IMG/VR virus record: IMGVR_UViG_3300029858_000001
Location: 91,123-155,122 of that record
Strand: one strand, 5' to 3'
DNA from: a virus
DNA length: 64,000 bases
The notes under the pieces are model-generated. The model was not told the DNA's origin and searched no databases. It was given only the letters and a program-made list of their open reading frames with translations. Positions within the stretch are counted from its first letter, which is position 1; each line of letters begins with the position of its first letter. Shown one piece after another: positions 1,808-48,692 of this stretch. Both the position numbers and the translations under genes were made by a program.

Positions 1808-4800
1808 TTGAATACTTATTTTGGTTGCCATAATCATACAATGTATTCGAACCTCCGTTTACTAGATTGTATAAATAAACCAGAAACTTTAATTGATAAA
1901 GCTATTGAATTAGGACTTTCGGGAATTGCTATCACAGATCACGAAAGTCTTTCTGCCCATATGACAGTAAATCAGTACGCTAAAAAAATCAAAGAAAAAT
2001 ATCCAAATTTTAAAATAGCATTAGGCAATGAAATTTATTTAACTAATGATAGAAGCACAGGACAAAAGTATTACCATTTTATTTTAATTGCTAAAGATGC
2101 TATAGGATATCGAGCATTAAAAGAATTAAGTTCAATTGCTTGGCAAAATTTATATGTTGATAGAAAAATGGAACGTGTTCCACTTTTAAAGAATGAATTA
2201 AAATCAGTAGTAGAGAAGTATAAGGGACATTTAATTGCTACTACTGCATGTATTGGTGGAGAATTAGGCACTTGTCTTTTAAAGGCTGTAGAATATAAAG
2301 AACAAGAGAATAATTACGAATTATATCAAATTTTAAAACAAATAGATACTTTTCTTACTTTCTGTCAAAATTTATTTGGTGAAGACTTCTATTTAGAGAT
2401 TGCTCCATCGACTGCGGCAGATCAAAAACTTGTAAACCATATGATTTATAAAATTGGTCGTAGTTATGGAATTAAGGTAGAAGTTGCCACCGATAGTCAT
2501 TATTTAACGAAAGAAGATAGACCAATTCATAAGGCTTATCTTAATTCAAAAGATGGAGAACGAGAAGTTGACAAGTTTTATGAATTTGCTCATTTAATGA
2601 CTTATGATGAAGTTTTTGATTTAATTACCCCTTGTTTTATATATTTAGATATTGAAGAGCAGCCAGAAAAAATAGCTAAAGAAATTTTAAATAATACTCT
2701 TGAAATTCAAAATAAAATTGAAGATTTTTCTCTTGAGAGAAAACAAATAATTCCAAAAGTAGAAGTATTAGATTATAAAAAAGGTTTTATTCCTTTAGAC
2801 TGGATTAATAAATATCCTATTATTTGTTCTTTAATTAATAGTGATAATATTCAAGAACGATATTGGATAAACGAATGTATTAAAGCCTTACAAGAAAAAA
2901 AACTTTATTATAGTGAAAATTATTTAGCTCGTCTTGAAATTGAAGCTGACATTATAAGAGATATTGGCGAAAAATTAGATGATTGCCTTTTTGCTTATTT
3001 CAATACTTTTAAACATTATATTGACTTGTTTTGGGATTGTGGTTCTATCGTAGGTCCTGGACGTGGTTCGGCCACAGGTTTCTTATCTAACTATTTATTG
3101 GGAATAACCCAATTGGATCCAATTCGATGGGGCCTACCATATTGGAGATTTTTAAATAAAGAGAGAGCCGAATTACCTGATATTGATATTGATTTGGCTC
3201 CTTCAAAACGTCCAGCGATTTTTGAAGCTATTCGCAAAGAACGTGGAGAGTTAGGTTTAATTCAGGTCGCTACATTTGGTACTGAAACTACTAAATCTGC
3301 TATCCTTACGGCTTGTAGAGGTTATAGGTCTGATAAATATCCAAATGGTATTGATGTAGATGAAGCTCAATATATGTCCTCTCTTATTCCACAAGAACGT
3401 GGATTTTTATGGGAAATTAATGATGTTATTTATGGTAATGAAGAAAAAGATAGAAAACCGGTTAAAACATTTATTAATAAAGTAAATGAATATCCAGGGC
3501 TTCTTGATATAATTATTTACATTGGTGGTATCGTTAATAAACGTTCTTCCCATGCTTCTGGTGTTATTCTTTATGGTGATGATCCATATGATACAGCAGC
3601 ATTTATGAGAACACCAAGTGGTAGTTTAATCACTTGTTGGGACTTACATCAGACCGAGGCAGCAGGTGATACGAAATATGATTTCCTTGTTACTGAAGCT
3701 TCTGATAAAATTATTACTTGTTATGAATTATTATTAAAGGCAAAAGAAATTCCTAACTTATCTTTGAGAGATTTCTATAATCAATATATTCATCCAGAAG
3801 TAATAGATACAACTGATCAAAAAATTTGGGATCATCTTGCAGCTGGAGATGTATTAGACTGTTTCCAGTTTTCTACTGGTGTAGGATTAGCTATTGCTAA
3901 AAAATTAAAACCACAAGACCCTATGGAAATGACTGCGGCTAATGCTATGATGCGTCTTATGTCTGAAAAAGGTAAAGAATCACAGCAAGATAGATTTTAT
4001 CGTATTCAACATCAAGGCATTCAAGCATTTGATAAAGAAATGAAACAACATCATTTGCCGCAAGAGCTTATTGATAAATTTCATAAGCATTGTGATAAAT
4101 ATTATGGTTGTTGTCCTTTGCAAGAGCAAATGATGGAAATCCTTATGGACATAGCCCATTTTACATTAGGTGAAGCCAATTCTGCCCGTAAAGTTGTCGC
4201 TAAAAAACAAATGGCTAAAATTCCTCAATTAAAAGAACAAGTATTTAGTCGTTTTGATAATAAAAATGATGCAGAATATTTTTGGGAAACAGCAGTAGCA
4301 CCGCAATTAGGATATGCATTTTCATTAAATCATAGTTTACCTTATAGTTTTGTAGCCATTCAAATGATTTATTTCGTTATTCATTATAATCCTATCTATT
4401 GGAATTGTGCTTGTTTGATTGTTAATAGTGGTTCTTTGGAAGATAATAGTGAAGAAGAGATCGTAGATATTTATGACCCTGAAGCAGATGATTTGGCTAA
4501 TGGAGTTACTTTTGAAGATTTGCCTGATAAAAAATCTAAAGTAAGAAAAACTAATTCTACTGACTATGGAAAGATTGCTAAAGCTATTGGAGACATTCGT
4601 AAAGCTGGTATTCAAGTAAGTCTTGCTGATATTAATAAATCAGAATTTAGTTTTATTCCTGATATTGAGAATAACCAGATTCTATTTGGCTTAAAAGGTA
4701 TGCTAAATGTTGGTGATGATGTAGTTAAAACTATTATTGAAAATAGACCTTATAAATCCCCCAGAGATTTTTTAAATAAGGTTAATCCTAATAAACAAGC

Positions 4801-5788
4801 AATGATTTCACTTATTAAAGGTGGAGCATTTGATCATATGATGGATAGAAAACTTTGTATGGTCTGGTATATTTGGGAAACTTGCGATAAAAAGAAAAAT
4901 CTTAATCTTCAAAATTTAGCTACTTTAATGAAATTCAATCTTCTTCCTGCGGACACTCTTGAACGGCAGCAAGCTTTACACATTTATGAATTTACTCGTT
5001 ATTTAAAACAAATTTGTAAATATGATAAAGTTTATTATAAATTGGATGATAGAGCTATTGATTTTTTACAAAAAATTGATAAAGATAGTTTAATTCAAAA
5101 TAAAGATTCTAATTTTTATTTAAATATTAAAGATTGGAATGATAAAGTTTATCAAGGCTGGATGGATATTTATCGTAAACAAATTGCTGATAATAAAGAA
5201 GAAATTTTAAATAAATTAAATGAAATTATATTTAAAGACGATTGGAAAAAATATTGTCCTAAAGTAAATTATTCAGCTTGGGAAATGGAAGTATTATGCT
5301 TCTATTATCATGAACATGAATTGGCTCAAGTAAATCAAAGCAAATATGGATTTGCTGATTTTTATAGTTTACCTGAAGATCCAGTAGTAGAAAGAAGTTT
5401 TGTTAAAGCTGGAAAAACAATAAATATTTATTATTTATCTAAATTATGCGGCACTTGTATTGCTAAGAATAAAAATAAAAGTATTGTAACAATTCTTACT
5501 CCAACAGGAGTAGTAAATGTAAAATTTAGAAAAGAATATTTTACATTATTCGATAAACAAATTTCTCAAAAACAACCTGATGGAACTAAAAAAATTATTG
5601 AAAAATCTTGGTTTAATCGCGGTAATATGATTGTGGTTCAGGGCATTCGTTCAGGTGATGATTTCATTGCTAAAAAATATGCCTCAACTGCGGGTCATCA
5701 ACTTTATCATATTGATACTATTCAATCAAATGGGGATTTAATTTTAAGAAGTGAACGATATCAAGGAGTAGCAGAAGATGAAGAATAA
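1808..5788 (+). CDS. dnaE: DNA polymerase III alpha subunit, DnaE-type, with N-terminal PHP domain. No TAG in 1326 codons.
   Basis: PHP motifs HNHTMYS and ITDHES. Polymerase core GPGRGSATGFLSNYLLGIT. TTG start 7 nt after AAGGAGG; TAA is in frame just upstream. Confidence 0.9.
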   Translation: MNTYFGCHNHTMYSNLRLLDCINKPETLIDKAIELGLSGIAITDHESLSAHMTVNQYAKKIKEKYPNFKIALGNEIYLTNDRSTGQKYYHFILIAKDAIGYRALKELSSIAWQNLYVDRKMERVPLLKNELKSVVEKYKGHLIATTACIGGELGTCLLKAVEYKEQENNYELYQILKQIDTFLTFCQNLFGEDFYLEIAPSTAADQKLVNHMIYKIGRSYGIKVEVATDSHYLTKEDRPIHKAYLNSKDGEREVDKFYEFAHLMTYDEVFDLITPCFIYLDIEEQPEKIAKEILNNTLEIQNKIEDFSLERKQIIPKVEVLDYKKGFIPLDWINKYPIICSLINSDNIQERYWINECIKALQEKKLYYSENYLARLEIEADIIRDIGEKLDDCLFAYFNTFKHYIDLFWDCGSIVGPGRGSATGFLSNYLLGITQLDPIRWGLPYWRFLNKERAELPDIDIDLAPSKRPAIFEAIRKERGELGLIQVATFGTETTKSAILTACRGYRSDKYPNGIDVDEAQYMSSLIPQERGFLWEINDVIYGNEEKDRKPVKTFINKVNEYPGLLDIIIYIGGIVNKRSSHASGVILYGDDPYDTAAFMRTPSGSLITCWDLHQTEAAGDTKYDFLVTEASDKIITCYELLLKAKEIPNLSLRDFYNQYIHPEVIDTTDQKIWDHLAAGDVLDCFQFSTGVGLAIAKKLKPQDPMEMTAANAMMRLMSEKGKESQQDRFYRIQHQGIQAFDKEMKQHHLPQELIDKFHKHCDKYYGCCPLQEQMMEILMDIAHFTLGEANSARKVVAKKQMAKIPQLKEQVFSRFDNKNDAEYFWETAVAPQLGYAFSLNHSLPYSFVAIQMIYFVIHYNPIYWNCACLIVNSGSLEDNSEEEIVDIYDPEADDLANGVTFEDLPDKKSKVRKTNSTDYGKIAKAIGDIRKAGIQVSLADINKSEFSFIPDIENNQILFGLKGMLNVGDDVVKTIIENRPYKSPRDFLNKVNPNKQAMISLIKGGAFDHMMDRKLCMVWYIWETCDKKKNLNLQNLATLMKFNLLPADTLERQQALHIYEFTRYLKQICKYDKVYYKLDDRAIDFLQKIDKDSLIQNKDSNFYLNIKDWNDKVYQGWMDIYRKQIADNKEEILNKLNEIIFKDDWKKYCPKVNYSAWEMEVLCFYYHEHELAQVNQSKYGFADFYSLPEDPVVERSFVKAGKTINIYYLSKLCGTCIAKNKNKSIVTILTPTGVVNVKFRKEYFTLFDKQISQKQPDGTKKIIEKSWFNRGNMIVVQGIRSGDDFIAKKYASTAGHQLYHIDTIQSNGDLILRSERYQGVAEDEE

Positions 5789-6040
5789 AATTGATTATGA
5801 TGAATTATAGGATTTATTAAAAACCCATCAATATATTGAAATTAGAGGAACAATTTTAATTAAATTTGAATAGACTCCTTATCTTAGAGTAATTACAAGA
5901 GACTTAAATGGAAATGATTATTGGATGGTATATACTTCAGATATCTTATGCCTTTTAACATAGTTTTTAGGATCGTGTTCTTATAATTGTTGTAATGGTA
6001 AATATTGTTTTTAGTCTTTTAATAGAAGGAATAATAAATG
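5778..6040 (+). CDS. Small hypothetical protein with four in-frame TAG codons
   Basis: ATG 5778, 8 nt after AAGGAG, overlapping the dnaE end. The frame is open through the TAGs to TGA, which overlaps the ATG of the next gene. Weak. Confidence 0.3.
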
Positions 6041-6607
6041 AATAATAAAAAATATCAATTAGTCGCACTCATAGGTAAAGCCGGTTCAGGCAAAGATACT
6101 ATTTTAAAAGATGTAGTAAAAGCTTATGAATTACCTATGAATATTGTTGTTTCTTATACAACTCGTCCAATGCGTGAAGGAGAGACAGAAGGAAAAGAAT
6201 ATCATTTTATATCTGAAGAAGATTTTAAGCAAATGATAAATAATAATCAAATGCTTGAATATGTTCAATTTAATAATTGGTGGTATGGAACTGGTATTAA
6301 ATGTTTAGCTGATGATAAAATTAATATAGGTATTTTTAATCCTTCTGGGATTAGATCATTAATCAATTTTTCAGAAATTGATTTACGAATATATTATATT
6401 CATGCTTCTGATAAACAACGTTTCCTTCGTCAACTAAATAGAGAAGAATACCCTGATGTCAAAGAAATTATTAGACGTTATTCTGCTGATGAAGAAGATT
6501 TTAAAAATATAAATTTTGATAATATGCAAATTTTATTTAATGAAACGGAAAGAGATAGATTAAAATGCTGTGATATAATTACAGATTATGATTGGTTTTG
6601 GTACTAA
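6038..6607 (+). CDS. Guanylate kinase-like dNMP kinase
   Basis: P-loop GKAGSGKDT and guanylate kinase signature YTTRPMREGETEGKEYHF. No TAG. Confidence 0.75.
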   Translation: MNNKKYQLVALIGKAGSGKDTILKDVVKAYELPMNIVVSYTTRPMREGETEGKEYHFISEEDFKQMINNNQMLEYVQFNNWWYGTGIKCLADDKINIGIFNPSGIRSLINFSEIDLRIYYIHASDKQRFLRQLNREEYPDVKEIIRRYSADEEDFKNINFDNMQILFNETERDRLKCCDIITDYDWFWY

Positions 6608-6699: not shown

Positions 6700-7986
6700 A
6701 TGTATATAATTAAACGTGATGGTACAGTTGTATTATTTGATAAAAATAAAATAATTAATGCTATTAACAAAGCATTTATAGAAGTCGATGGATAGTTATA
6801 TGAAAATGATACAGCTACTGATATTGCTAATGATATTGAATCTTGGATAAATAAATGTCCAGATGGTAGTATTGAAGTAGAAGATATCCAAGATATAATT
6901 GAAGATTATCTAATGCAGTCAGAACGACGTGACGTTGCTCGGGCCTATATTAGATATAGATATAAAAAAGAAGTAGCTCGATAGAAAAAAGATGATTTTA
7001 TTCAAGCTATTAGAAAAAAATTAGATGGTAAAGATATTAAAAATCAAAATGCTAATGTAGATGAAGCATCATTCGGTGGCCGTATTGGTGAAGCCAGTAG
7101 TGTGGTAACTAAACAGTTAGCTTTAGATTATATTGTATCTCCCATGACTCGTAAAAATCATTTAGAAAATATAATTTATACTCATGATCTTGATGCTTAT
7201 TATGTTGGTTCTCATAATTGTTTAAGTATTCCTTTTGATGATTTACTTGCTAATGGATTTAATACACGCCAAACAGATGTACGTCCAGCAGGTTCAGTGA
7301 ATACAGCTTTTCAATTAGTGGCTGTTATTTTCCAAATTCAAAGTCTTTCTCAATTTGGTGGCGTTAGTGCGACCCATCTTGATTGGACTATGGTTCCTTA
7401 TGTCCGTAAATCTTTTTATAAGCATTATCGTGATGGTATGAAATACTTATGCAATTGTAATTGGAATTTAGATAACTATTTAGAAGATAGTGATACCTAT
7501 AAAAAAATCATAGATATTCCGATTAATGATTATTCAGCTTATCTAAATGAAGCAGATGATGCTGGAGATTTTGATAAAGTATATCAATACGCTAGGGATA
7601 TGACTTTAAGAGAAGTCCATCAAGCAGTAGAAGGTATGTATCATAACCTTAATACTTTACAATCTCGTTCAGGTAATTAGTTACCATTTACTTCTATTAA
7701 TTATGGTACTTGCACTCTTCCAGAAGGAAGAATGATTATTAAAGCTCTTTTGGATGTATCTATCGAAGGTATTGGTAAATTACATAAAACATCTATTTTC
7801 CCTTGCGGAATTTTTCAGTGCATGAAAGGTGTTAATCGTGAAGAAGGAGACCCAAATTACGATTTATTTAAACTCGCATTACGTTCAACCGCCACAAGAT
7901 TGTACCCAAATTATGCTAATGTCGATTGGTCTGGAAACGCAGGGTATGACATTAATGATCCTCGTACCTACTTTTCTACAATGGGT
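6700..7986 (+). CDS. nrdD: Anaerobic ribonucleotide reductase NrdD, exon 1 (ATP-cone plus catalytic N-terminal part). In-frame TAGs at 6793, 6979 and 7678.
   Basis: ATP-cone N-terminus MYIIKRDGTVVLFDKNKIINAINKAF. The frame ends at ...FSTMG; the conserved MGCR continues only when joined to exon 2. The last exon nucleotide is T, as expected for a group I 5' splice site. Confidence 0.8.
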
Positions 7987-8836
7987 AAGCGAAAACTCAG
8001 CCCATTTAAAATCTTTTGAACCGCGCCAGCGGGTGTCTCTATAAAGAGGCTAACGGTTAGGTCTTAATATAATTGGCTGTAATATTAAGATGAGACCGTG
8101 CTAAAATTCATTATAATATTCATATAAAGGAGGTGTCCTTAATGTGGATATATAAAATAACAAATATTCAAAATAATAAAGTATATATTGGTTAGTCTAT
8201 TAGACCAATTAATCAAAGATTTCAAAGACATATAAATGATGCTCTTAACAATATTCTTGATACTCATTTTGCCAGAGCAATAAGAAAATATGGTAAAGAA
8301 AATTTTATTATAGAAGAAATTGATATAGCAAATACGCAAGAAGAATTAAATGAAAAAGAGTAGTATTGGATTAAATATTATAATTCAGTAATAGATGGTT
8401 ATAATGAAACAGACGCTATTTCTAAATGCGGTGGAAATACTTATCAATCTAAAACTGACAAAGAAATAGAAGCTATTAAAGATAAAATTCGACAAACTAA
8501 AGTAGGAAGTAAAAATCCTATGGCTAAAAAAATAAAAAGAATAAATATTTTTACTAATGAAATAGATATTTTTGATACAATTATTAGTTGTGCTAAAGCT
8601 TGTGGAATTCAAAGTGGTAAAACTTCTATTACAAATAGATTAAATGGAAAAATTAAAAGTCCATTTAAAAATACTTGGAAATTTGAATATTATGATGAAT
8701 AAAGTGTATCGACTATCCCTGATGAATGTAAGGGAGTAGGCTTGGAGATAGGCACCAGGCCGAAGCGGAAGACAACTCTATCTTATAGATAGAATGATAA
8801 TATAGTCAGTACCAATGGTGACATTGGATAATTACG
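7987..8836 (+). mobile_element. Group I self-splicing intron in nrdD, carrying a GIY-YIG homing endonuclease ORF
   Basis: About 850 nt interrupt NrdD between ...STMG and CRTANGYDINGFGQLKDGRGN. GC-rich paired elements flank an internal ORF. An S-like element aatatagtca lies near 8796. The intron ends in G immediately before exon 2. Confidence 0.6.
8142..8702 (+). CDS. GIY-YIG homing endonuclease (intron-encoded) with two in-frame TAG codons
   Basis: MWIYKITNIQNNKVYIG(TAG)SIRPINQRFQRH is the GIY-YIG motif. The C-terminal half looks like a DNA-binding domain. RBS AAAGGAGG upstream. TAG at 8193 and 8361. Confidence 0.8.
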
Positions 8837-9835
8837 TGTAGAACAGCCAATGGATATGATATTAATGGTTTTGGTCAATTAAAAGATGGTAGAGGAAATA
8901 TTTGTCCTGTGACTATTATCCTTCCAACTATTGCTATGAATTGTAAAATTAATTTTGAAAAAGATGTAAAAGATCACCATTCTTTTGATGATAATTCTAT
9001 TTTAATTGATAGATTCCTTTATAATCTGGATCAAAAAATTAATGAAGCAAGAATCCAATTAATGGAACGTTTTGAATGGATTTGCTCACAAGATCCAAAA
9101 TCTGCAAAGTTTATGTATGAAAATAATCTAATGGCAGGATATATTCCAGAAGAAGGAATTAGAAGTGCCCTTAAGCATGGTACATTAGCTATGGGATAGA
9201 TTGGTTTGGCTGAAACTCTTCAAATCCTTATTGGCAAAGATCATACTACTAAAGAAGGTATGGAATTAGCTAAAAAGATTGAGGGATTATTTAAACAACG
9301 TTGTGCAGAATTTAAAGAACAATTTAAACTGAATTTTGGAGTTTATTATTCTCCTGCTGAAAATTTATGTTATACATCAATGCAGAAGTTTAAAGAGAAG
9401 TATGGCATTATTCCTAATGTGTCTGATAAAGAATTCTTTACTAATTCTATGCACGTTCCAGTTTGGAAGAAAATGTCTCCTTTTGATAAAATTGATATTG
9501 AAAGTCAATTAACAGGCTATTCTTCTGCTGGATGCATTACTTATGTAGAATTAGACTCTACTGTAAAACATAATATTGATGCTCTTGAACAAATTGTTAA
9601 TTATGCTATGGATAAGGATATTCCTTATTTTGCAGTAAATGTACCTAATGATACTTGCCTTGACTGTGGATATTGTGATGAATTTAATGATAAGTGCCCT
9701 GAATGCGGTAGCACTAATATTCAATAGTTACGTCGTGTAACCGGTTATTTAACTGGAAATTATAAAACTGCTTTTAATTATGGTAAACAGAAAGAAGTAG
9801 AAGCACGAGTAAAGCATACGGGGTAGATGGAATGA
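8837..9835 (+). CDS. nrdD: NrdD exon 2, containing the glycyl-radical C-terminus. TAG at 9197 and 9725; TGA stop.
   Basis: CRTANGYDINGFGQLKDGRGNICPVTIILPTIA aligns to E. coli NrdD MGCRSF...DGRGNLGVVSLNLPRIA. C-terminus reads CPECGSTNIQ(TAG)LRRVTGYL...NYGKQKEVEARVKH. Confidence 0.8.
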
Positions 9836-10179: not shown

Positions 10180-10853
10180 ATTATTCTAAAAGACCTTTAA
10201 AAAAGCATTATAAAATAAAAGATAAATTAGAAAAAGCTACTGAAGTATTAGATAAAAAAATTGACTTGGAATTAGAAGCAATTATAAAAATAATATTTTC
10301 TTGGATAGCTAATGATGAAAAAATTAATACAAAAGAGCATCGAGATACTCTAATAAATTTATTTTATAAGGCATTAGAAAATCTTTATTCTGAAATTAAT
10401 ATATAGTTAGGGAAGATTTATAAAACAGTAGCTCCTTTTAATTTAAAAGATATAACAGACTTAACTTTTCAAGAAGATGGAAAAACATTAGATGAACGAA
10501 TTACTAAATATTTAGATGATTTAGAAGAAAAAAGATTATCTGGCGATTTTCCAGATAATTTAAAAAACTTCGGTGCAAATATGTATTCTCGTCTATTAAA
10601 TAATGAAGGTAAATATTTATTTACTCATTTAATGGAAATGAAAATAAAACCTGTAGCTTCAATACTTGTAATTGAAACAGGAACTTGCGATGATCTATGC
10701 GGTGAATGGGCTGGAGAATACCCCGTAGGAGAAGACGTTCCTCTGCCTCCTTACCATACTAATTGTTAGTGTTCTGCTTATTATATTGAAACTGATGATG
10801 AAGATGATGTTAATGATTTAGATTTAGAAGTGGAGGAAATAAAGGATATATGA
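10176..10853 (+). CDS. Protein with a Mu gpF / SPP1 gp7-like C-terminal motif, two TAG codons
   Basis: CDDLCGEWAGEY...LPPYHTNC(TAG)CS resembles the Phage_Mu_F D-x-x-C...PP-H-x-N-C-R-C motif. ATGA overlaps on both sides. Confidence 0.45.
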
Positions 10854-11338
10854 AATATGCAGGAATTATAAAAAATGATATTGCCGCAGCTCCGGGAGTA
10901 TGTGTCTCTTTTTTCACCCAAGGTTGCCCACACCATTGTTTTGGATGCCATAATCCTGAAACTTGGGATTTTGAAAAAGGTAAAGAATTCACCAATGAGA
11001 CTTTTGGAGAAATATTTCAAGCACTTCAAGCCAATGGTATTCATAGAGATTTCTGCATAATGGGAGGCGAACCATTATGTGAACAAAATCAATTACTTAC
11101 TCTACTTCTTATTAATACAATTAAAGAAAAGCTTCCTGATACTAAAATTTATGTTTGGACTGGATATTATTATGATGATTTAATTAAGCAAACTACTAAT
11201 GGTAAACTTCAAGAAATTCTTAAAAAAGCTGATGTATTAATTGATGGTCCATATATTCAGTCTCAAAGAGATATTACCCTATCAATGAGAGGTAGTAAAA
11301 ATCAAAATATCATAAATTTAAAGGAGATTAATAAATGA
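10850..11338 (+). CDS. nrdG: Anaerobic RNR activating enzyme NrdG (radical SAM)
   Basis: GCPHHCFGCHN cluster with a glycine-rich SAM site. It lies immediately after nrdD and is translationally coupled (ATGA). No TAG. Confidence 0.85.
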   Translation: MKYAGIIKNDIAAAPGVCVSFFTQGCPHHCFGCHNPETWDFEKGKEFTNETFGEIFQALQANGIHRDFCIMGGEPLCEQNQLLTLLLINTIKEKLPDTKIYVWTGYYYDDLIKQTTNGKLQEILKKADVLIDGPYIQSQRDITLSMRGSKNQNIINLKEINK

Positions 11339-12124: not shown

Positions 12125-12400
12125 ATGTTTGAATATTTAATTAATACTACTGAAGTATATAGAGTAGATACAGAAAAAGAAGCAGCTGAACTTATTAATA
12201 AGGCTAAGCAGGATAGAGAATATGATTTAGCTAAATATTCTTCTACAAAGAAAGAGCGTAAATAGAAGGGTGAGATTGTTGATGAATGGTATCAAGTAAC
12301 CCTTGTAAAAAAGTTTAATGATGAAAAAGAACCGACAGATCATATTTCACTTTGTTATACAACCAGAACTAATTTTGATGGGGAGACTACAATTAACTAA
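12125..12400 (+). CDS. Small hypothetical protein, one TAG
   Basis: ATG 12125; TAG at 12263; TAA overlaps the dut ATG. Confidence 0.4.
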
Positions 12401-13473: not shown

Positions 13474-13583
13474 TAGGATGAATTAAATTGGGAATGACGG
13501 GCAATTTTATACAATTATATAATTCTTTCTTTCATTTATAATATGAGAAAGAGCGACAAATTCATGTCGGGAGGATTATATAA

Positions 13584-16780: not shown

Positions 16781-17188
16781 TTATTTTGTTTCTGTTGGAG
16801 TAATTTTATTTGTACTAACTTCTTTTTCAATTTTAGAAGAAATATACTCATTGAGATCTCCAACAGCAGAATTCAAATATTCAATAGCATCTTGACCTAA
16901 AATAGCAATTACTTTATTATAAACATCAGTAAATGCTTTTTTCTACGCTTCGCCATCAAATTTTCCTTGCTGTTTTAATGAATTAACATAAGTCTGATTC
17001 ATTGCAATAACACAATCGGTAATTGTATTATCAAGCATATCTAAATATTTTTTAGCTAATTCGCTATCTGTTTGTTGCTTTAAAGCATCTTTTTTAGATT
17101 TAATCCAAGCAACTAAGAATGTCGTTAAAATTCCAAGTAAAGGAATAATACAAATCTGAAATATTTGCGCAACTAATTGAGCATCCAT
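16781..17188 (-). CDS. Small membrane protein with one N-terminal TM and a charged C-terminus (holin-like candidate)
   Basis: ATG 17188 with GGAGG RBS. Track ORF 16943..17188 continues through TAG 16943 to TAA 16781-83, just before the terminator. Confidence 0.4.
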
Positions 17189-19850: not shown

Positions 19851-19853
19851 CAA

Positions 19854-36800: not shown

Positions 36801-39800
36801 CTTTTTCAATATTTAAGTTTTCTAAATTGCTTTGTTCATTAGCTAAAGCATATTGCTATTGAAGAATCTATTTATCATAGACAGACTATAATTTATCAAC
36901 AGCACTTTCATCTATCCAAATTTCGCCAGTGTCTTTTTTACCCCAAGCACCTTCCATATTCTTTAGCTCAGGATAAGTATTTAAAATATTAAGAGCTTCT
37001 TCATTAGCTTTAGTTAACTATGCACGCCATTCTTTAGTACCAACAGTACATTCATCTAAAGCAGATTTAACAGAGTTATAACTATCAAATACTGATTTTA
37101 ACTATTCAGCTTTATTCTTTGTTTCTTCTAACTAACTTTTAAAACTCTCAACAGCCTATTCAGAACGTTTAATTTGTTCTTCTATAGTAAAAGACTAAGC
37201 TGTATTATATACTTTAACCAATACAGCAATGGCAGCAACTACTGCTCCAATTATTAAAGCATATTTACCCAAAACAAGTAAAGATTTAGTAAACATTGCA
37301 TGAGTTGCCGCACCGCTAGCTGCTAATTGCTATTCAGCAGTTCCCGCAGAACCAGCAGCTACTCCCAATTCTTTAAGTTTGGCAGTATAAGCATCAAGAC
37401 CAGTTTGCATAATTTTAGTTCTAAACCCAGAACTATTCTCTATCTTTGTCTTTAAAGCTGCCTATAAATCAGACCCCTATAAAGACCCTCCTAAACCAGT
37501 CATTATTGATAAAATATTAGTACCTAGTCCCTTCCAATTAGTTCCAATTTCTTTTAATCCGCTAGCTAACTAATTTACTCCATTGATTAAAGAAGGAATA
37601 GCAAAACTCGCTGAAGTAATACTCTAAGTTAATTTTTCTCCAAAATCTAATTCACTGTTATTTAAAGCATTAAACATTCCTTTTAAACTATTGATTCCAA
37701 TAGCTAATTGAGAAATACCCTAAAAACTAGAAACTAATCCTTGAGAAAAACTGTATATAGATCCTTGACTAGCTTTTAATTCTGCGTTAAAAGCTTCAAT
37801 AGCACTCTCATATTTTTCAATAGCTCCTTTGTTCTACAAAAGAGCCTCTTTCTCATTTACGTAATCTGTAAGACACTATCTTAAGGCATTAGACTAAGCT
37901 TTTGTTAATTTTTCTGCTTTAATTTTCTAATTAACATAATTATCAATTTCAAGATTGACGTCTCTTAAATTATTAACTTCAGCTAATATATCTTTTCTAA
38001 GAGTACCTTTAGCACCATTACTTAGATTAGAATTGTTACCCTATTGAATTAACTAATTTAATTTACTATATCTTGGGTTATTCAAATTTAATTGACCAAA
38101 TTGAGAAATAAAATCTTTAAAAGAACCATTTGAATTAATTTTTAAAGACTTTAAATCTTGCATTGTTTTATCATTATAAAAATTATCGACAATCTTTTGG
38201 CCTTTTTTTAAGCTATTGTCAAAATAAATTACGCCTTTATCTCCACCAAATTTTTTATTATTATCTTCAAAAATTATATTGCGAGCATTACGTAAATTGT
38301 TATTACTCTAAGTTTGTTGAGCTTCTATGCTTTTTTTAGATTCTATAGCTATTTGTCCATAAGCCTAAGAAATTTTTAATAATGTCTATAATCTTAATTT
38401 ATCTGTTTCATTTAACTAATTATTTGCTAGCTATAAATCATAAGAAGCCTCTGCAGCTTTGACCATTGTAGTTGTTTCTAATTCAACTGAACCCTATTTT
38501 GTTAAATCAGGTTTTTCTTCATAAGTTGTAAAGGTTTTTAAAACATTTATCATCTACTGCTTCATAACCGCAGCCTAATTTTCAGCAGCTCCACTATCAA
38601 TGAATAAATTGGAAGCCATACGCTGCATATTATTTACAATATCAGGACCGAAACTCTTTAACATTAAAGTAGAAATGACACTTAATACGCCAGGTAATCC
38701 ACCTAATGAATCAATCAATTTGCTTGTAATATTTAATGTATCACTTAATGTATCATTTAATCCGATAAAAAATTTATCACTAACTAATTGCTTATAAATT
38801 TCTTCAAGAGAAGCTTGTACTCGCTTTTTAGAAGCTTCCCAACTTTCAGCATAAATATCAGCTTGTTCTTGTAAAGTACCTTCAGAATTTTTAGCCACTC
38901 CAACTAGCTCTTTAAAATAATCTTTATTCTCCATAAGATTAACTAATTGAGTGTATTGACGAACACCACCAACAGTCTATGCAAGAGCCACTTGTTCAGC
39001 ACGACTTAAACTATCCCACTTATTCATCATTTCATCAAGGATAGTATTCATATCTTTTAACTCACCCTATTGGTCTTTAATACTAATACCAACTTTTTCA
39101 AGGGCTTTAGAATATTTATTTAAATCAGTACCATCTTCAAGAGTTTCTCCGAGAGTCAAACCCTAAATACGAGCGAATAAAGTTTTAAGGCTATTACCTA
39201 CTGTGTTCGCACTTTCACGTGTTTTAGCAGTTAATGTAGCTAATGCAGATGTAGCATATTCATAACTAAGACCAATAGTATTAGCAACAGAAGCGAATTT
39301 CTATATACCTTCTGAGATTTCATCAGTACTAGAAGCAGTATATGCACCAAGCTTGGTCATTACATCGGCATAATATTCCAGAGATTTGCTGCCATCATAG
39401 AAGTTATTCCAAACAGCAGTTAACTAATCGGATATTTTAGAAGCACTTTCACCTGCGGCATTCGCCATTTTAATAGTAACTTCAGTACGGTCAACAACTT
39501 CTTTATCACTTAAACCCTATTGATAATAAATTAAAGAAGCATTAGTATAATTAGTAGTAGTTGTACTTAATGCTTGAGCAGCCTTATTTGCCTTTTCAGC
39601 AAACTCAGCCATTTGATCACTACTCTATCCAGTAACTATACGAATATCATTTAATGATCTATCTAAATCTTTTGCATAATAGTAAGCCTTCTATAAAGAA
39701 CCCTATACTCCATGCATTAAATTAGATGAAATTTGCCATTTGGCTGTATTAGCTAATGTCTTTTTAAAATTATCTAATAAAGCATTAGTTCTTTTTAAAG

Positions 39801-40182
39801 GAACTTCAGCATTAATAACAGACTATGCTAACGCAACAAATGCTTTATCACCTGTTGGACCCAGATTCTCTAAATGCGTAGCAAAATCCTAAAGAGTATA
39901 GCCACTCTAGCTCAAACTCTTTGAAAATTTTGATAAATCTAAACGTCCAGTATTAACATTAGTCGCCTAATCTAAAGCAATTTTTAACTCCTAAACTGCT
40001 GCCGAGGCTTCATCTATTTCTTTTTTAGTGGCATTAACATCAAAAAATTTAATATTTTTTGTTGCTATCTAATTCATTAAAGTATCTAATGAACTTTGTA
40101 AATCTCGTAATTGCTATTTAGCCTGACCTGTATCAGCTGTAAATCGCATATTAACATTATAATTAGCACTGTTATTAGCCAT
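30859..40182 (-). CDS. Tail tape measure protein, apparently a single ~3100-aa ORF once TAG is read as sense
   Basis: ATG 40182 with AAAGGAG RBS. Every track fragment over 9.3 kb (38575..38934, 36169..36414, 35179..35361, 34510..34800, 31636..31890, 31312..31506) is in the same frame as the start and the TGA stop. Ala/Gln/Leu-rich coiled-coil; LSRAEQVALAQTVGGVRQ region. Spot translation found no TAA/TGA, but this was not checked exhaustively. Confidence 0.5.
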
Positions 40183-40224
40183 AAAATAGCTCCTTTCTCT
40201 CATTATAATTTTCTATATATAAAG

Positions 40225-42470: not shown

Positions 42471-43556
42471 TTAAATATCAAAATAGCTGTCATGCATTGG
42501 ATCATGGATAGTTTGAGTACGATAGACACTATCATTGTCAATATCTTCAATGATCTGAACTGCAGCAAGCACTTTCTTAGTAGGATTGAAACGAGTAGTT
42601 CCTGGGAAAGCATCAAGCGTGAAGGTAAAAGTCGCAGGATCACCAGTTGCGGCCATACTGAAAGTAAAGTTAGACTGGATCTTGCAGTTAGGAATTACGA
42701 ATTCTGCTGGAAGATCAACGCCGTCTTGAGTACGGAATAGAGTAGAAGCTTCAAGATAGAAGTTGCCACCAAAAGATTCAGCAGTAATTTCAATTTGACG
42801 AGCTTTGCTAGCTTTCTCAATATAATAATCAAGAAGAACGACAGAGCCTTCAAAAAGTGCTAATTTATGTTCTGCATCAGCTTCAGTTTCATCAACGATA
42901 GTATAAGTAGAAGTAATATCCTGAATTTGAAGCCCATAATAAATCTGAATACCAGCTTTAGCTTTAGTATCAGCTTCTTCATCAGTACAAGTCTTATACT
43001 TCATTTCAGTTTCATCAAAATAGAACTTTTGAGGTTTTGTCGGTGCATCTGCCTAACGAATAACTGTAGGAAGATAAGGTTCAGTTACTGGCTCATCATT
43101 GTCAACTCGCATAGCATAAATATAGAATTCACCCTTATGCGCACCAGTAGTAGTATCAATTTGTTCGTATGGTAAATTTTTAACAAAAATTTGAACACTC
43201 TTTTTATTTTCAGCAAGAGCGACAGCAGTTGTTTTTTCAGTTACATGCTGTTTAATTGTATTCTGTTTAGAAGCATCAATAAGACCTGCTCCAGCAAGAA
43301 TCATGAAACCTTCAGCAGAAATAAGAGCGTCTTCCATAGTGAATGTTAAAGTACGGTCGCCATCCCAAGCTACTAAACGAGCATTGCCGCGTCCGCCTTG
43401 TGCATATACGGTCGTAGAAGCACCTTCAAGGCTAGAAGTTTTTAATGTATCGAAATAAAGAACTGGTTCGTTCGCATAGAAAACTTTATTACCAACCTTC
43501 ATAGGAGCACGAGCTTTTAATACGACATCGCATATCTCACGAACACCAAATTTCAT
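42471..43556 (-). CDS. Major tail (tube) protein with a C-terminal Ig-like domain; one TAG
   Basis: N-terminus MKFGVREICDVVLKA... is typical of phi13-family major tail proteins. Strong RBS AAGGAGG. Track ORFs 43053..43556 and 42471..43004 are in one frame, joined through TAG 43053. Confidence 0.6.
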
Positions 43557-46889: not shown

Positions 46890-47456
46890 TTAACCTTCTT
46901 TTACAACGTTATAACGAGGAGTAGTTCTACGACCAGGAGGCGTTGTGGGCTTAGTTTCGGTCTTTACTCTACGTTCAGGAGCTTTTGGAGTAATTTGCTC
47001 ATCATCTGCAGCTTCAGCTTCCTTATTGGCTAATGCTCGATCAAGATCAAATCCAGTTTTATCCTTAAGAGCTTTACGCTTATTATAATCACTCATAGGA
47101 AGAGACACAGCATAACTCTTAATCATATCAATAACTCCAATAGGAGCAAAATCAAGACAGTCAAGGAATTCATCAAGAGTTCCTTCAGTAAGAAGCTTAA
47201 TAACTCCAGCGTCGTCTAAATAATATTCAGGTTCTGTATGAATACCTAATTCTTCTGTAGTTTCAGTATCCACAATCTTTAAGAAATTTTCCATTAAAGT
47301 GCGGCCTCCGCTAAGATAGGCAAGTTTCTCTAATTCCTCAAAAGGAATTTTCTTAGTTTCTCCAGGTGTAAATTCTCTGCGGATACCTTCTTCAGGAATA
47401 GTATAAACAACCATTCCAGCACTTCTATTAGTAACTATTAAAATTTTTTTACTCAT
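46890..47456 (-). CDS. Hypothetical protein with a basic Pro/Thr-rich tail, TAG-free
   Basis: Intact 188-aa ORF directly after the capsid-gene terminator. Confidence 0.55.
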   Translation of the reverse strand: MSKKILIVTNRSAGMVVYTIPEEGIRREFTPGETKKIPFEELEKLAYLSGGRTLMENFLKIVDTETTEELGIHTEPEYYLDDAGVIKLLTEGTLDEFLDCLDFAPIGVIDMIKSYAVSLPMSDYNKRKALKDKTGFDLDRALANKEAEAADDEQITPKAPERRVKTETKPTTPPGRRTTPRYNVVKEG

Positions 47457-47555: not shown

Positions 47556-48692
47556 TTACGGCTTATCTTCATTTCCGCCATCAATAGTATCATGAGAACC
47601 AGTAATCTGACCAGCATAGTCACGAACCTTACCAGTTACGCCATCAAGATGCCATGTCTTCATATCACCAAGAAGTTCAGTATCACAATAGCAGCAGATG
47701 TTATTAGCTAACATAGCAATAACGCCAACTTTCTTATAAACCTGAATTTCACGGCTACGATCATAATTGGTGTATTCATCAACAATGGTATTGCCTTCCA
47801 TAGCAACCTTTACAGGCTTACTATCAGCACCAGTAGGAATAATCCAAGCATAACCTGGGTCAATGACTTTCTTTTCATTAGTAGCATCTTCAAAGCCCTG
47901 CTCAAGAATAACAACTTTATAGCCCTTATAGGAAGCAAGACGACCAGTATTCCAAAGCTCATTTTTCATAGCTTCAGTATAACGCCAAGCATCCTTCGGA
48001 ATCATACGAACAGCAAATTCATAAGTGCAATAAATAGTAGGAGTACCATAAGCAGAAGCAATCATAAGTAACTTATCAAAGCCGGGTTCATCAAAACCAT
48101 TAGCAACTAAACGGTTAGCAGGAGGTAACTGGTTAACAGAAGCCTTTAAAGCACCGGCAATTTCTTTATAGATAAGTTCGTCCATACCTTCCATGACGAT
48201 CTGGGTAACAACACCAAAATCAACACGGCCATCAAGGAATTCCTCAAAGCCAATTTGAGCAGCTCCGCCGATAGCGCTTGTACGGACTTCAAAGCATTCT
48301 TCAGTCTTACCAAGCTTGAATACTTCATAGATACCAGCTAGGCCGACACGAGTGATGAATTGCTTTGCACGAGTATTGTTGCTGAACTTTCTACGGAAAA
48401 TAGGCTTGTCACCCTGTTTAAACGTCTTAACTTCAGCAAACTGATTGTATTGCTCTTCAACTTTCTTAGGAAGAACTTCATCAATAGTTTCCTCAATCAT
48501 TGAGAAAATAAGGTTCTTATTATCACGATATAAAGAATAAGTTCCAGCAAGTTCATTTAATTCTCTACGGAGAGTTTCATTAAGAGCATCATAAGAAAGG
48601 CTTTCGCCATTAAAGCTGTAAGCAGTAGGAGTAGAAGGATCAGCCTTAGCGACAGTCTTCATTAATTGAACAAGATTTTTTCTATCTAACAT
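47556..48692 (-). CDS. Major capsid protein (HK97-like by size and position), TAG-free 378 codons
   Basis: Intact ORF preceded by a strong RBS GAAAGGAGAG. Positioned after the scaffold-like genes, followed by a strong terminator. GC is higher than the surroundings. Confidence 0.65.
   Translation of the reverse strand: MLDRKNLVQLMKTVAKADPSTPTAYSFNGESLSYDALNETLRRELNELAGTYSLYRDNKNLIFSMIEETIDEVLPKKVEEQYNQFAEVKTFKQGDKPIFRRKFSNNTRAKQFITRVGLAGIYEVFKLGKTEECFEVRTSAIGGAAQIGFEEFLDGRVDFGVVTQIVMEGMDELIYKEIAGALKASVNQLPPANRLVANGFDEPGFDKLLMIASAYGTPTIYCTYEFAVRMIPKDAWRYTEAMKNELWNTGRLASYKGYKVVILEQGFEDATNEKKVIDPGYAWIIPTGADSKPVKVAMEGNTIVDEYTNYDRSREIQVYKKVGVIAMLANNICCYCDTELLGDMKTWHLDGVTGKVRDYAGQITGSHDTIDGGNEDKP

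What the first reader, a model, noticed from the sequence alone, without database searches (positions are those of the whole stretch)
1808..48692. Very uneven TAG usage: absent from DnaE, several early enzymes and the major capsid protein, dense in tail and assembly genes
None of these carries an in-frame TAG: dnaE (1326 codons), gmk, nrdG, dut, ruvC, the capsid protein (378 codons) and the 46890-47456 gene. Many other early-region genes do carry TAGs: the helicase (4), nrdD (5), the GIY-YIG endonuclease (2) and the small genes at 948-1547, 5778-6040, 9832-11850 and 11853-12400 (1-4 each). The tape measure, Dit-like, fibre, portal and TerL genes carry TAG every few dozen codons; the tape measure alone probably has more than 100. 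This fits the published idea that amber recoding gates late-gene translation until a phage suppressor tRNA accumulates. It also fits selection against TAG in the most highly expressed structural gene.
Basis: partly seen in the sequence, partly recalled or inferred. Interest (0 to 1): 0.7.

Follow-up and report, generated by a model that had tools for sequence, protein, structure and literature searches.

The report
Uneven amber-codon use in recoded phage
This gut phage reads the stop codon TAG as glutamine, uses it freely in most late genes, but keeps it out of its DNA polymerase and its most abundant virion proteins. The pattern is real and conserved in relatives, and it belongs to a phenomenon already described for other recoded phages.

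Summary
With TAG read as sense, 45 genes carry 322 TAG among 838 glutamine-type codons (TAG+CAA+CAG), very unevenly (chi-square P=1e-12). DnaE has 0/56 and the HK97-fold capsid protein 0/11. The tape measure has 107/215, and portal, TerL and tail genes are at 43-62%. TAG means Gln: standard-code orthologues carry Q opposite 44% of window TAGs. The pattern is conserved in other recoded lineages: capsid 1/164, tail tube 2/121, DnaE 1/227, against portal 119/339.

Corrections:
- ruvC is not TAG-free. Its tandem TAG-TAG is read through to a conserved C-terminus.
- nrdD has 6 TAG, not 5.
- gmk and nrdG are not TAG-free in relatives.

About 50% TAG in tail genes is roughly what AT mutation pressure alone predicts. 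What needs explaining is depletion, not enrichment. Depletion falls on two classes: abundant virion proteins, which also show strong codon bias, and core replication enzymes plus a block of small, presumably early genes. The published gating model is only partly supported. Helicases, NrdD and RuvC carry TAG, the holin has only one, and no suppressor tRNA was found. This is a further example of a known phenomenon, with moderate interest.

The parts
1808..5788 (+). dnaE (Pol III alpha). TAG-free: 0 of 56 Gln-type codons.
   Evidence: Pfam DNA_pol3_alpha, PHP, finger and HHH_6 domains. P=1.6e-12. Orthologues in 5 other recoded lineages: 1/227. Codon bias is ordinary, NNC index 0.11.
93..944 (+). 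C-terminal part of an SF1 helicase. 4 TAG of 14.
   Evidence: Pfam UvrD_C_2 and AAA_30. Counts.
6038..6607 (+). Guanylate kinase. 0/7 here, but 1-2 TAG in more distant recoded relatives.
   Evidence: Pfam Guanylate_kin..
6700..9835 (+). nrdD in two exons (6700-7985 and 8837-9835), 6 TAG of 32. It is interrupted by an 851-bp insertion that carries the GIY-YIG ORF 8142-8702 (2 TAG of 9).
   Evidence: Pfam NRDD, ATP-cone, Gly_radical and GIY-YIG. The insertion is absent from 95%-identical relatives. Spliced count. No Rfam intron hit.
10850..11338 (+). nrdG-like activase. 0/10 here, 1-2 TAG in most relatives.
   Evidence: Pfam Fer4_12 and Radical_SAM..
12400..12948 (+). dUTPase. 0/3 here, 0/21 in four other lineages.
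   Evidence: Pfam dUTPase..
12991..13497 (+). RuvC-like resolvase with tandem TAG-TAG at 13471-13476 that is read through. 2 TAG of 7.
   Evidence: Sequence. Conserved ..NWE C-terminus in 16 orthologues. Weak TIGR00228 match, E=6e-4.
16781..17188 (-). Holin. 1 TAG of 10 Gln codons.
   Evidence: phrog_13712 holin, E=6e-29. Relatives 0/8 and 0/5.
17202..30813 (-). Five tail, baseplate or fibre genes (882, 233, 1167, 1139 and 1070 aa). 86 TAG of 164 Gln-type codons.
   Evidence: phrog tail protein match for 20566-24069.
30859..40203 (-). Tape measure protein, 3114 aa. 107 TAG of 215 Gln-type codons (share 0.50).
   Evidence: Ten PHROG tape-measure families. Counts.
42471..43556 (-). Major tail (tube) protein. 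1 TAG of 15.
   Evidence: Homologues are annotated tail tube or major tail protein in Bacillus phages Kirov and Thrax. phrog_2729. 2/121 in 12 other lineages. NNC index 0.28.
46890..47456 (-). Capsid-adjacent protein of unknown role. 0/1 here, 2/89 in 13 lineages.
   Evidence: phrog_30998.
47556..48692 (-). Major capsid protein (HK97 fold). 0 TAG of 11, with 7 CAG and 4 CAA.
   Evidence: AlphaFold model with pLDDT 84.8. It matches phage capsids and encapsulins, 365 hits at E<=0.001. 1/164 in 13 other recoded lineages.
48710..49486 (-). Protein encoded next to the capsid gene, possibly scaffold or decoration. 1 TAG of 15.
   Evidence: 6/142 in 12 lineages. NNC index 0.22.
51089..52774 (-). Portal. 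10 TAG of 22.
   Evidence: phrog_2739 portal, E=1e-76. Relatives 119/339.
53237..54988 (-). Terminase large subunit. 11 TAG of 23.
   Evidence: PHROG TerL families. Relatives 101/274.
57455..63578 (+). Block of about 17 small ORFs with GC 0.30-0.48 (most 0.35-0.48). 0 TAG among 41 Gln-type codons, and CAG is preferred. Presumed early genes, outside the finding's span.
   Evidence: The block continues TAG-free for at least 14 kb in close relatives.

Best explanation
The window comes from a large siphophage with about 29% GC, found in human gut samples. It is a distant relative of phAss-1 and of SPbeta-like Enterococcus phages, and it decodes TAG as glutamine (genetic code 15).

In such an AT-rich genome, CAG decays by transition either to CAA or to TAG. 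TAG cannot decay further, because TAA is a stop. Without selection, TAG and CAA should therefore each take roughly half of the Gln codons. That is the state of the tape measure, fibre, baseplate, portal, TerL and connector genes. Their high TAG density is a neutral background, not an adaptive enrichment.

The unevenness comes from purifying selection that removes TAG from two gene classes.

(a) The proteins made in hundreds of copies per virion: the capsid protein, the tail tube and two capsid-adjacent proteins. Codon bias shows translational selection on the first three of these genes. TAG is avoided there far more strongly than the equally 'non-preferred' CAA. This implies that amber decoding is slower or leakier than ordinary decoding, so its cost scales with expression.

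(b) Core replication enzymes, together with a block of small, presumably immediate-early genes. In the window this class is DnaE. Just upstream in close relatives it also includes the two topoisomerase subunits and mostly the primase. These genes presumably must be translated while host RF1 still terminates at UAG, before suppression is established.

Shown here:
- the codon counts;
- that TAG means Gln;
- conservation of the pattern across lineages;
- the link with codon bias.

Inferred:
- the expression levels;
- the timing;
- the existence and kinetics of a suppressor.
For: - TAG means Gln. Standard-code orthologues have Q opposite 176 of 400 window TAGs (44%). The figure is 51% opposite CAA/CAG, against a background Q frequency of 4.4%.
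- Heterogeneity is strong, P=1e-12.
- TAG share by class in the window: DnaE 0/56; other + strand genes 27/117 (0.23); four abundant late genes 2/42 (0.05); 24 other late genes 293/623 (0.47).
- A neutral expectation built from Lys/Glu third-position A:G (about 6) and Leu first-position T:C (about 10) gives a TAG share of about 0.5-0.6 and a CAG share of about 0.06. The other late genes show 0.47 and 0.08.
- At 72 conserved Gln columns of portal, TerL and similar genes, TAG interchanges with CAA/CAG in nearly every column.
- The pattern is conserved in 12-13 other recoded lineages. As TAG:CAA:CAG, the capsid protein is 1:38:125, the tail tube 2:49:70, the 48710 gene 6:35:101 and the 46890 gene 2:57:30. 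Portal is 119:180:40 and TerL 101:142:31. DnaE is 1:166:60 in 5 lineages.
- Among late genes, TAG share falls as the NNC codon-bias index rises (rho=-0.51, P=0.013). The same bias is seen in standard-code relatives.
- In close relatives, GyrA-like is 0/152 across 7 lineages, GyrB-like 0/52 and orf402 1/59. The neighbouring orf332 is about 30% TAG and RecJ-like 14/24.
- The small ORFs at 57.4-63.6 kb have 0/41.
- The tape measure has 107 TAG. Late read-through must therefore be close to complete, since 0.99^107=0.34 and 0.95^107=0.004.
Against: - No expression, timing or suppression data exist. 'Abundant' and 'early' are inferred from protein identity, codon bias and gene position.
- The 46890-47456 gene does not show the NNC codon bias in standard-code relatives (0.10-0.24, no higher than portal or TerL). 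Its place in the abundant class rests on TAG depletion, CAG preference and position next to the capsid gene.
- No suppressor tRNA, release factor or aaRS gene was found in the window or in about 120 kb of the closest relatives. How TAG is decoded is therefore unknown.
- The replication module mixes TAG-free genes with TAG-bearing ones (DnaB-like, helicase, NrdD, RuvC, RecJ-like). No strong internal terminators were detected. A simple 'before suppression' class is therefore not cleanly defined.
- DnaE has ordinary codon bias, so class (b) needs a different cause from class (a), and that cause is not identified.
- The small-ORF block has a different GC content. It may be TAG-free partly because of foreign origin.
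- The neutral expectation rests on small Leu codon counts.
Confidence: 0.6

Rival explanations
1. Adaptive gating. TAG codons are positively selected into late structural and lysis genes so that these genes cannot be translated until a phage suppressor tRNA accumulates. In this view TAG density is a timing device.
For: - The TAG share rises from presumed early ORFs (0/41), to the replication module (0.23), to late genes (0.47).
- The model is published for other recoded phages (bioRxiv 10.1101/2021.08.26.457843).
- In phAss-1, two tRNA(CUA) genes sit inside the replication module, next to nrdD.
Against: - The late-gene TAG share does not exceed the mutational expectation.
- TAG positions drift freely.
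- The holin has 1/10, and 0 in relatives.
- The capsid and tail-tube genes are late yet TAG-free.
- There is no positional bias of TAG within genes (KS P=0.65).
- Several replication genes carry TAG.
Confidence: 0.2
2. Truncation toxicity. TAG is removed from genes whose prematurely terminated products are harmful, rather than from genes that are early or abundant. Examples would be capsid or tube subunits that poison assembly, or polymerase and topoisomerase fragments that bind DNA unproductively.
For: The TAG-free set consists of self-assembling polymers (capsid, tube) and large multi-domain DNA enzymes (DnaE, GyrA/B-like). DnaE shows no codon bias that would suggest high expression.
Against: Portal, tape measure and connector proteins also assemble, yet they carry TAG at the neutral share. 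The tight link with codon bias in class (a) points to expression level. The idea cannot be separated from the main explanation using sequence alone.
Confidence: 0.1
3. Recent acquisition. The TAG-free genes were imported recently from standard-code phages or hosts and have not yet accumulated TAG.
For: - Standard-code and recoded lineages are interleaved. The window's capsid protein is 81-82% identical to standard-code relatives.
- The TAG-free small-ORF block has a deviant GC of 0.30-0.48 (most ORFs 0.35-0.48).
Against: - The same genes are TAG-free in 5-13 recoded lineages that differ by 25-60% at the protein level. Synonymous sites are saturated there, and CAA/CAG do turn over.
- DnaE has the genome's typical GC and codon usage.
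- Genes flanking the capsid gene carry TAG at the normal share.
Confidence: 0.05
4. Chance or composition. The differences reflect only gene length, Gln content or local base composition.
For: The tape measure's high per-codon density (34 per 1000) is partly due to its 6.9% Gln content. The zeros for dut (0/3) and the 46890 gene (0/1) are uninformative on their own in the window.
Against: Normalising to Gln-type codons still gives P=1e-12. DnaE alone gives P=1.6e-12. The pattern replicates in independent lineages.
Confidence: 0.01

Closest known systems
Alternatively coded (TAG- or TGA-recoded) gut phages with gene-class-specific use of the recoded codon (Borges et al., bioRxiv 10.1101/2021.08.26.457843)
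   Same: TAG is read as Gln in a low-GC gut phage. Only some genes carry in-frame TAG. Structural genes are heavily recoded, and use in the replication machinery is variable. Close standard-code relatives exist.
   Different: - That paper reports preferential recoding of lysis genes, and of a tail tube gene in crAss-like phages. Here the holin has 1/10 and the tail tube is among the most TAG-depleted genes.
- No code-change module (suppressor tRNA, RF or aaRS) was found.
- The main text of the preprint never mentions capsid genes (0 occurrences).
Phage phAss-1 and the proposed Phassvirus group (Babkin et al. 2023, PMC10607447; OQ749652)
   Same: - Homologous capsid protein (49% identity).
- Giant tape measure (3149 aa there, 3114 aa here).
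- Code 15, with TAG in virion genes and several DNA enzymes.
- phAss-1 dnaE (0/59) and capsid gene (0/15) are also TAG-free.
   Different: - No nucleotide-level similarity (megablast found nothing).
- Different gene order and a lower GC (0.29, against 0.42 in the phAss-1 stretch fetched).
- phAss-1 has 36 tRNAs, three of them tRNA(CUA). None was found for this lineage.
- That paper lists which ORFs carry TAG but does not analyse the unevenness.
Amber-reassigned crAss-like phage with a TAG-free capsid gene (bioRxiv 10.64898/2026.08.21.746148)
   Same: The authors note, as a surprise, that the major capsid protein gene shows no alternative codon use. They suggest pressure for efficient translation. 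Replication genes are in standard code.
   Different: That is a single-genome remark in an unrelated phage order (Crassvirales, Bacteroidota host). Here the avoidance is quantified against CAA, extends to the tail tube and two further genes, and is conserved over 13 lineages.
Translational selection on codon usage in highly expressed phage and bacterial genes
   Same: The TAG-poor late genes prefer CAG over CAA, and three of the four (capsid, tail tube, 48710-49486) are the ones with most C-ending two-fold codons. Their orthologues in standard-code relatives show the same.
   Different: The disfavoured codon is a reassigned stop that competes with a release factor. Its avoidance (TAG:CAA = 11:179 in the four genes across lineages) is much stronger than ordinary synonymous bias.

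Membership tests
Genetic code 15 phage (TAG read as Gln) | Genes fragmented under the standard code become full-length when TAG is sense | tested here: met
   Long-ORF coverage is 19.4 kb under table 11 and 55.3 kb with TAG as sense. Making TGA sense gives no comparable gain (22.0 kb). Portal, TerL and tape measure are restored.
Genetic code 15 phage (TAG read as Gln) | In-frame TAG aligns with glutamine in standard-code homologues | tested here: met
   Q stands opposite 176 of 400 TAGs (44%). The substitution spectrum matches that of CAA/CAG (51% Q). Background Q frequency is 4.4%.
Genetic code 15 phage (TAG read as Gln) | TAA and TGA are retained as stops | tested here: met
   All 45 genes end in TAA (34) or TGA (11).
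Genetic code 15 phage (TAG read as Gln) | Phage-encoded suppressor tRNA with anticodon CUA | tested here: inconclusive
   ARAGORN finds no tRNA at all in the window. It also finds none in loci covering about 120 kb of the roughly 190-kb genomes of the closest relatives. About 70 kb could not be reached. phAss-1 has three.
Code-switch regulation model (early genes in standard code, late and lysis genes recoded) | Early and replication genes are compatible with the standard code | tested here: inconclusive
   Compatible: DnaE, gmk, nrdG-like, dut and the small ORFs at 57.4-63.6 kb. In relatives, also GyrA/B-like and mostly the primase. Not compatible: helicase (4 TAG), NrdD (6), RuvC-like (2) and several small ORFs. 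In relatives, also DnaB-like (3-4) and RecJ-like (14).
Code-switch regulation model (early genes in standard code, late and lysis genes recoded) | Lysis genes use the recoded codon preferentially over CAA/CAG | tested here: not met
   The holin has 1 TAG of 10, and 0/8 and 0/5 in relatives. No endolysin was identified in the window.
Code-switch regulation model (early genes in standard code, late and lysis genes recoded) | Code-change genes (suppressor tRNA, RF, aaRS) lie near the lysis or late module | tested here: not met
   None lies in the 64-kb window, which contains the whole late module.
Code-switch regulation model (early genes in standard code, late and lysis genes recoded) | Temporal change of TAG decoding during infection | not testable with these tools
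   This needs time-resolved proteomics or ribosome profiling in an infected host. The host is unknown.
Proposed genus Phassvirus (phAss-1, BK046881, BK025033) | Nucleotide identity of about 80% or more and shared synteny with phAss-1 | tested here: not met
   Megablast of 17 kb of the late module found nothing in the phage collection that contains phAss-1. Protein identities are 29-49%. Gene order differs. The window is a distant relative, not a member.
Translational selection against a costly codon in highly expressed genes | Avoidance coincides with independent codon-bias signals and is conserved in orthologues | tested here: met
   rho=-0.51, P=0.013 among late genes. TAG:CAA is 11:179 in the four genes across lineages, against roughly 1:1 elsewhere. 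The same bias appears in the capsid, tail-tube and 48710-49486 orthologues of standard-code relatives; the 46890-47456 orthologues show CAG preference only.
Translational selection against a costly codon in highly expressed genes | The genes concerned are in fact the most highly expressed | not testable with these tools
   Inferred from identity only: HK97-fold capsid protein and homologues annotated as tail tube.

The most novel reading that the evidence does not exclude
This lineage may encode no suppressor tRNA at all. No tRNA was seen in about 120 kb of roughly 190 kb. It may instead reprogram UAG decoding by another route, for example by inactivating host RF1 or by altering a host tRNA-Gln. 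In that case the per-gene TAG load would act as a built-in rheostat. Within single long operons it would set both the timing and the stoichiometry of proteins: zero TAG for polymerase, topoisomerase, capsid and tube, and about 50% of Gln codons for low-copy parts.
Probability: 0.12. Interest if true: 0.75.

Novelty: new member of a known kind. Interest (0 to 1): 0.4.

Why it matters
Stop-codon recoding in gut phages is common, but its purpose is debated. This lineage offers three things.

- **A natural comparison set.** At least 14 recoded and 4 standard-code lineages share the same gene order. The data show that most of the in-frame TAG load looks like neutral drift under AT pressure. Selection is visible mainly as removal of TAG from a small, reproducible set of genes.
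- **A sharper question.** The question shifts from 'why are late genes recoded?' to 'why can these few genes not tolerate TAG?'.
- **Concrete targets for experiment.** These are dnaE, the topoisomerase subunits, the capsid protein and the tail tube.

There is also a practical point. Annotation pipelines that use table 11 shatter these genomes, while the TAG-free genes remain intact. This biases marker-gene surveys.

Tried and rejected
- **Rfam.** Gathering thresholds on the whole window gave no hit, so there is no tRNA-like or intron RNA. An E-value scan of 7800-9100 for a group I intron around the GIY-YIG ORF also gave nothing.
- **Family searches for the capsid-region proteins.** Pfam and NCBIfam returned nothing. 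Sequence and profile searches of PDB returned nothing meaningful.
- **Structure prediction.** The first AlphaFold model, from 20 close homologues, was too poor to use (pLDDT 44.8). A 78-sequence alignment fixed this.
- **Source contig.** An exact-match search for the window's own contig in IMG/VR found no match.
- **Suppressor tRNA hunt.** I walked along relatives' contigs in 10-kb steps, using all 8 viral-contig scans, and found none. About 70 kb of the roughly 190-kb genome was not reached, so absence is not shown. A generic tRNA(CUA) pattern scan was rejected because it would match thousands of unrelated phages.
- **Promoter scan.** It is uninformative in this AT-rich DNA: 104 sites found, 112 expected.
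- **Position of TAG within genes.** No bias (KS P=0.65).
- **Base after TAG (+4).** It differs only slightly from CAA and resembles CAG. It was not pursued.
- **Host identification.** MAG bins holding related contigs are labelled Mollicutes, Clostridium and Muribaculaceae. This is probably binning by composition and not host evidence.

Full report
**What the window is**

The window has about 29% GC and contains no tRNA gene and no Rfam match. Stop-to-stop ORFs of at least 150 aa cover 19.4 kb under the standard code. They cover 55.3 kb when TAG is treated as sense. Making TGA sense gives no comparable gain.

A code-15 reading yields 45 genes in two convergent modules.

- **+ strand, 93-14021: replication and nucleotide metabolism.** It holds an SF1 helicase fragment, DnaE, guanylate kinase, a split NrdD with a GIY-YIG ORF, an NrdG-like activase and dUTPase (Pfam). 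It also holds a weakly supported RuvC-like gene.
- **- strand, 57156-14065: late genes.** The order is a sigma-like gene, TerL, a homing-endonuclease-like ORF, portal, capsid-region genes, connectors, major tail protein, a 3114-aa tape measure, large tail genes and a holin.

The capsid assignment was checked by structure. An AlphaFold model built on 78 diverse homologues (pLDDT 84.8) matches HK97-fold phage capsids and encapsulins, with 365 PDB hits at E<=0.001. Homologues of the 42471-43556 gene are annotated as tail tube or major tail protein in Bacillus phages.

The closest annotated relative is phage phAss-1, with 49% capsid identity. It belongs to a group described as using code 15 (PMC10607447). 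There is no nucleotide-level match, so the window is a distant relative and not a Phassvirus.

**TAG means glutamine**

I masked every window TAG as X and aligned 17 late proteins to orthologues from four standard-code lineages. The residue opposite TAG is Q in 176 of 400 cases (44%). For the window's CAA/CAG codons the figure is 320 of 628 (51%). The background Q frequency is 4.4%. The minor substitutions (E, K, N, A, S) are the same for both sets.

**The observation**

The 45 genes hold 322 TAG among 838 Gln-type codons (TAG+CAA+CAG). Heterogeneity is extreme: chi-square 145 on 44 degrees of freedom, P=1e-12.

| Gene | TAG / Gln-type codons | Note |
|---|---|---|
| DnaE | 0/56 | P=1.6e-12 |
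| Capsid protein | 0/11 | P=0.005 |
| Major tail protein | 1/15 | |
| 48710-49486 | 1/15 | |
| gmk | 0/7 | |
| nrdG-like | 0/10 | |
| dut | 0/3 | uninformative alone |
| 46890-47456 | 0/1 | uninformative alone |
| Tape measure | 107/215 | |
| Portal | 10/22 | |
| TerL | 11/23 | |
| Five tail genes | 86/164 | |

1. ruvC does not stop at the TAG at 13471. The sequence reads ...AAA GTG TAG TAG GAT GAA TTA AAT TGG GAA TGA. The terminal ..NWE motif is conserved in all 16 orthologues, several of which have ordinary sense codons at the two TAG positions. ruvC therefore has two TAGs that are read through.
2. nrdD is interrupted by an 851-bp insertion (7986-8836) that carries the GIY-YIG ORF. The insertion is absent from 95%-identical relatives. 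The spliced gene has 6 TAG.

**Conservation in relatives**

IMG/VR holds many relatives. I clustered them at 90% portal identity. This gives 14 TAG-recoded and 4 standard-code lineages around the capsid gene, and 6 recoded lineages around dnaE.

In the recoded lineages other than the window's own, the counts as TAG:CAA:CAG are as follows.

| Gene | TAG:CAA:CAG |
|---|---|
| Capsid protein | 1:38:125 |
| Tail tube | 2:49:70 |
| 48710 gene | 6:35:101 |
| 46890 gene | 2:57:30 |
| DnaE | 1:166:60 |
| Portal | 119:180:40 |
| TerL | 101:142:31 |
| 43636 gene | 113:74:9 |

The depletion is therefore maintained over divergences where synonymous sites are saturated. By contrast gmk, nrdG and the 13584 gene carry TAG in more distant relatives. 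Their zeros in the window are not conserved.

Just upstream of the window in close relatives, some genes are TAG-free and interleaved genes are not.

- TAG-free across lineages: the two topoisomerase subunits (GyrA-like 0/152 over seven lineages, GyrB-like 0/52), orf402 (1/59) and orf242 (0/56). The primase is nearly TAG-free (0-2 TAG per lineage).
- Not TAG-free: RecJ-like (14/24), orf332 (about 30%) and DnaB-like (3-4/19).

**'Dense' is the neutral state**

With TAG synonymous to CAA/CAG, and TAA lethal, CAG can decay by transition to CAA or to TAG, and TAG cannot decay further. I estimated the neutral share from the window's own ratios: third-position A:G in Lys/Glu codons (about 6) and first-position T:C in Leu codons (about 10). 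The expected TAG share is about 0.5-0.6 and the expected CAG share about 0.06. The 24 ordinary late genes show 0.47 and 0.08.

At 72 alignment columns where Gln is conserved in portal, TerL and three other genes, TAG alternates with CAA/CAG in nearly every column. TAG shows no positional bias within genes (KS P=0.65).

The tape measure's very high per-codon density reflects its 6.9% Gln content at the same 0.50 share. What needs explaining is depletion, not enrichment.

**Two depleted classes**

*(a) Abundant virion proteins.* Among late genes the TAG share falls as an independent codon-bias index rises. The index is C versus T at two-fold NNY codons (rho=-0.51, P=0.013). The four depleted genes prefer CAG, whereas the rest of the genome prefers CAA. 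The capsid, tail-tube and 48710-49486 orthologues in standard-code relatives show the same NNC bias and CAG preference. The 46890 orthologues show the CAG preference but no elevated NNC index (0.10-0.24). For the first three genes the bias reflects translational selection that predates recoding. Yet TAG is avoided far more than CAA, 11:179 in the four genes across lineages. TAG therefore carries a specific cost.

The tape measure needs 107 read-throughs, and 0.99^107=0.34 while 0.95^107=0.004. Late suppression must therefore be nearly complete. Even a cost of about 1% per codon would matter most for proteins made in hundreds of copies. This last step is inference.

*(b) Core replication enzymes and presumed early genes.* DnaE has ordinary codon bias (NNC index 0.11), so class (a) reasoning does not apply to it. 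The TAG share is graded:

- 0/41 in a block of about 17 small + strand ORFs at 57.4-63.6 kb. Most have GC 0.35-0.48, and the block continues TAG-free for at least 14 kb in relatives.
- 0.23 in the replication module apart from DnaE.
- 0.47 in late genes.

This fits translation of some genes while host RF1 still terminates at UAG. It is what the published model proposes.

**Limits of the gating model here**

- Several replication-module genes need read-through: helicase, NrdD and RuvC, plus DnaB-like and RecJ-like in relatives.
- No strong terminator separates them from TAG-free neighbours.
- The holin has one TAG of ten Gln codons, and none in relatives. The published model emphasises preferential recoding of lysis genes, and of a crAss tail tube gene.
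- No suppressor tRNA was found in the window. None was found in loci covering about 120 kb of the roughly 190-kb genomes of the closest relatives. About 70 kb could not be reached, so absence is not shown.
- For comparison, phAss-1 has three tRNA(CUA) genes, two of them next to nrdD, plus a tRNA-Gln(CUG).

**Novelty**

Uneven use of a recoded stop codon is published, including variable use in replication genes (10.1101/2021.08.26.457843). A TAG-free capsid gene was noted for one crAss-like phage (10.64898/2026.08.21.746148). The phage group itself is described (PMC10607447).

What this analysis adds:

- The neutral-equilibrium reading of the 'dense' genes.
- Quantified, lineage-replicated avoidance of TAG relative to CAA in the capsid, tail tube and two neighbouring genes.
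- A conserved TAG-free set of replication enzymes interleaved with TAG-bearing genes.
- The contrast with the lysis and tail-tube enrichment reported for crAss-like phages.

I rate it a new member of a known kind, of moderate interest.

Noticed in passing
window 7986-8836: nrdD carries an 851-bp insertion with a GIY-YIG homing-endonuclease ORF (8142-8702). The insertion is precisely absent from 95%-identical relatives (L002, L003, L011) and present in L004, L010, L014 and L019. No Rfam group I or II intron model matches it.
   Followed up: partly
window 57455-63578, continuing in L105, L108 and L113: A block of about 17 small + strand ORFs has GC 0.30-0.48 (most 0.35-0.48), against 0.26-0.33 in most of the rest of the window. 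It has no TAG, prefers CAG and has a high NNC index (0.34). It extends at least 14 kb beyond the window in close relatives. It is probably an early or host-takeover region, possibly of foreign origin.
   Followed up: partly
window 58098-58403: An AbrB/SpoVT-like small ORF ends in TAG, with 8 more codons before the next TAA. This is the only candidate for TAG acting as a real stop in a presumed early gene. Conservation of the extension was not checked.
   Followed up: no
window 63677-64000: A partial HNH/NUMOD-type endonuclease ORF with 3 TAG. Homology with all close relatives stops at 63651, so it looks like a mobile insertion.
   Followed up: partly
window 52792-53148: A homing-endonuclease-like ORF (phrog_9084 and phrog_559) sits between the portal and TerL genes. 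It is conserved in nearly all relatives, including standard-code ones.
   Followed up: no
L027-L043 and L090-L094, compared with the other L021-L100 loci: Standard-code and TAG-recoded lineages are interleaved. The window's capsid protein is 81-82% identical to standard-code relatives but only 71-78% identical to many recoded ones. This implies repeated gain or loss of recoding, or recombination of the capsid gene.
   Followed up: no
L002-L004, L102-L113, L173-L178, L195, L213-L221, L293-L298: Relatives' contigs are 137-201 kb, and overlaps suggest a circularly permuted genome of about 190 kb. No tRNA of any kind was found in about 120 kb of it, whereas phAss-1 carries 36 tRNAs.
   Followed up: partly
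L008, L011, L014 (dnaE match 4.3-5.1 kb instead of 3.9 kb): The dnaE match in some relatives is 0.3-1.2 kb longer than in the window. This suggests an insertion (intron, intein or endonuclease) in the polymerase gene of those lineages.
   Followed up: no
L004 6805-7533 (orf242, upstream of the window in close relatives): A protein with a signal-peptide-like N-terminus and a lysozyme-like motif lies in the replication module and is TAG-free in five lineages (0/56). If it is the endolysin, a lysis gene would be in standard code. The function was not verified.
   Followed up: no
window 14026-14057 and 16747-16779: Two strong bidirectional terminator-like hairpins. One is at the convergence of the replication and late modules. 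The other is immediately after the holin gene, ahead of four further - strand genes.
   Followed up: no
L101 44286-44359 (phAss-1): phAss-1 encodes a tRNA-Gln(CUG) in addition to three tRNA(CUA). Its capsid gene uses CAG for all 15 Gln codons. This fits phage-supplied decoding of the codon preferred in highly expressed genes.
   Followed up: no
L208-L212 (GTDB MAG contigs): Related phage contigs are binned into MAGs labelled uncultured Mollicutes, Clostridium sp. and Muribaculaceae. One Mollicutes bin holds two different relatives. This is probably binning by composition, and the host remains unknown.
   Followed up: no
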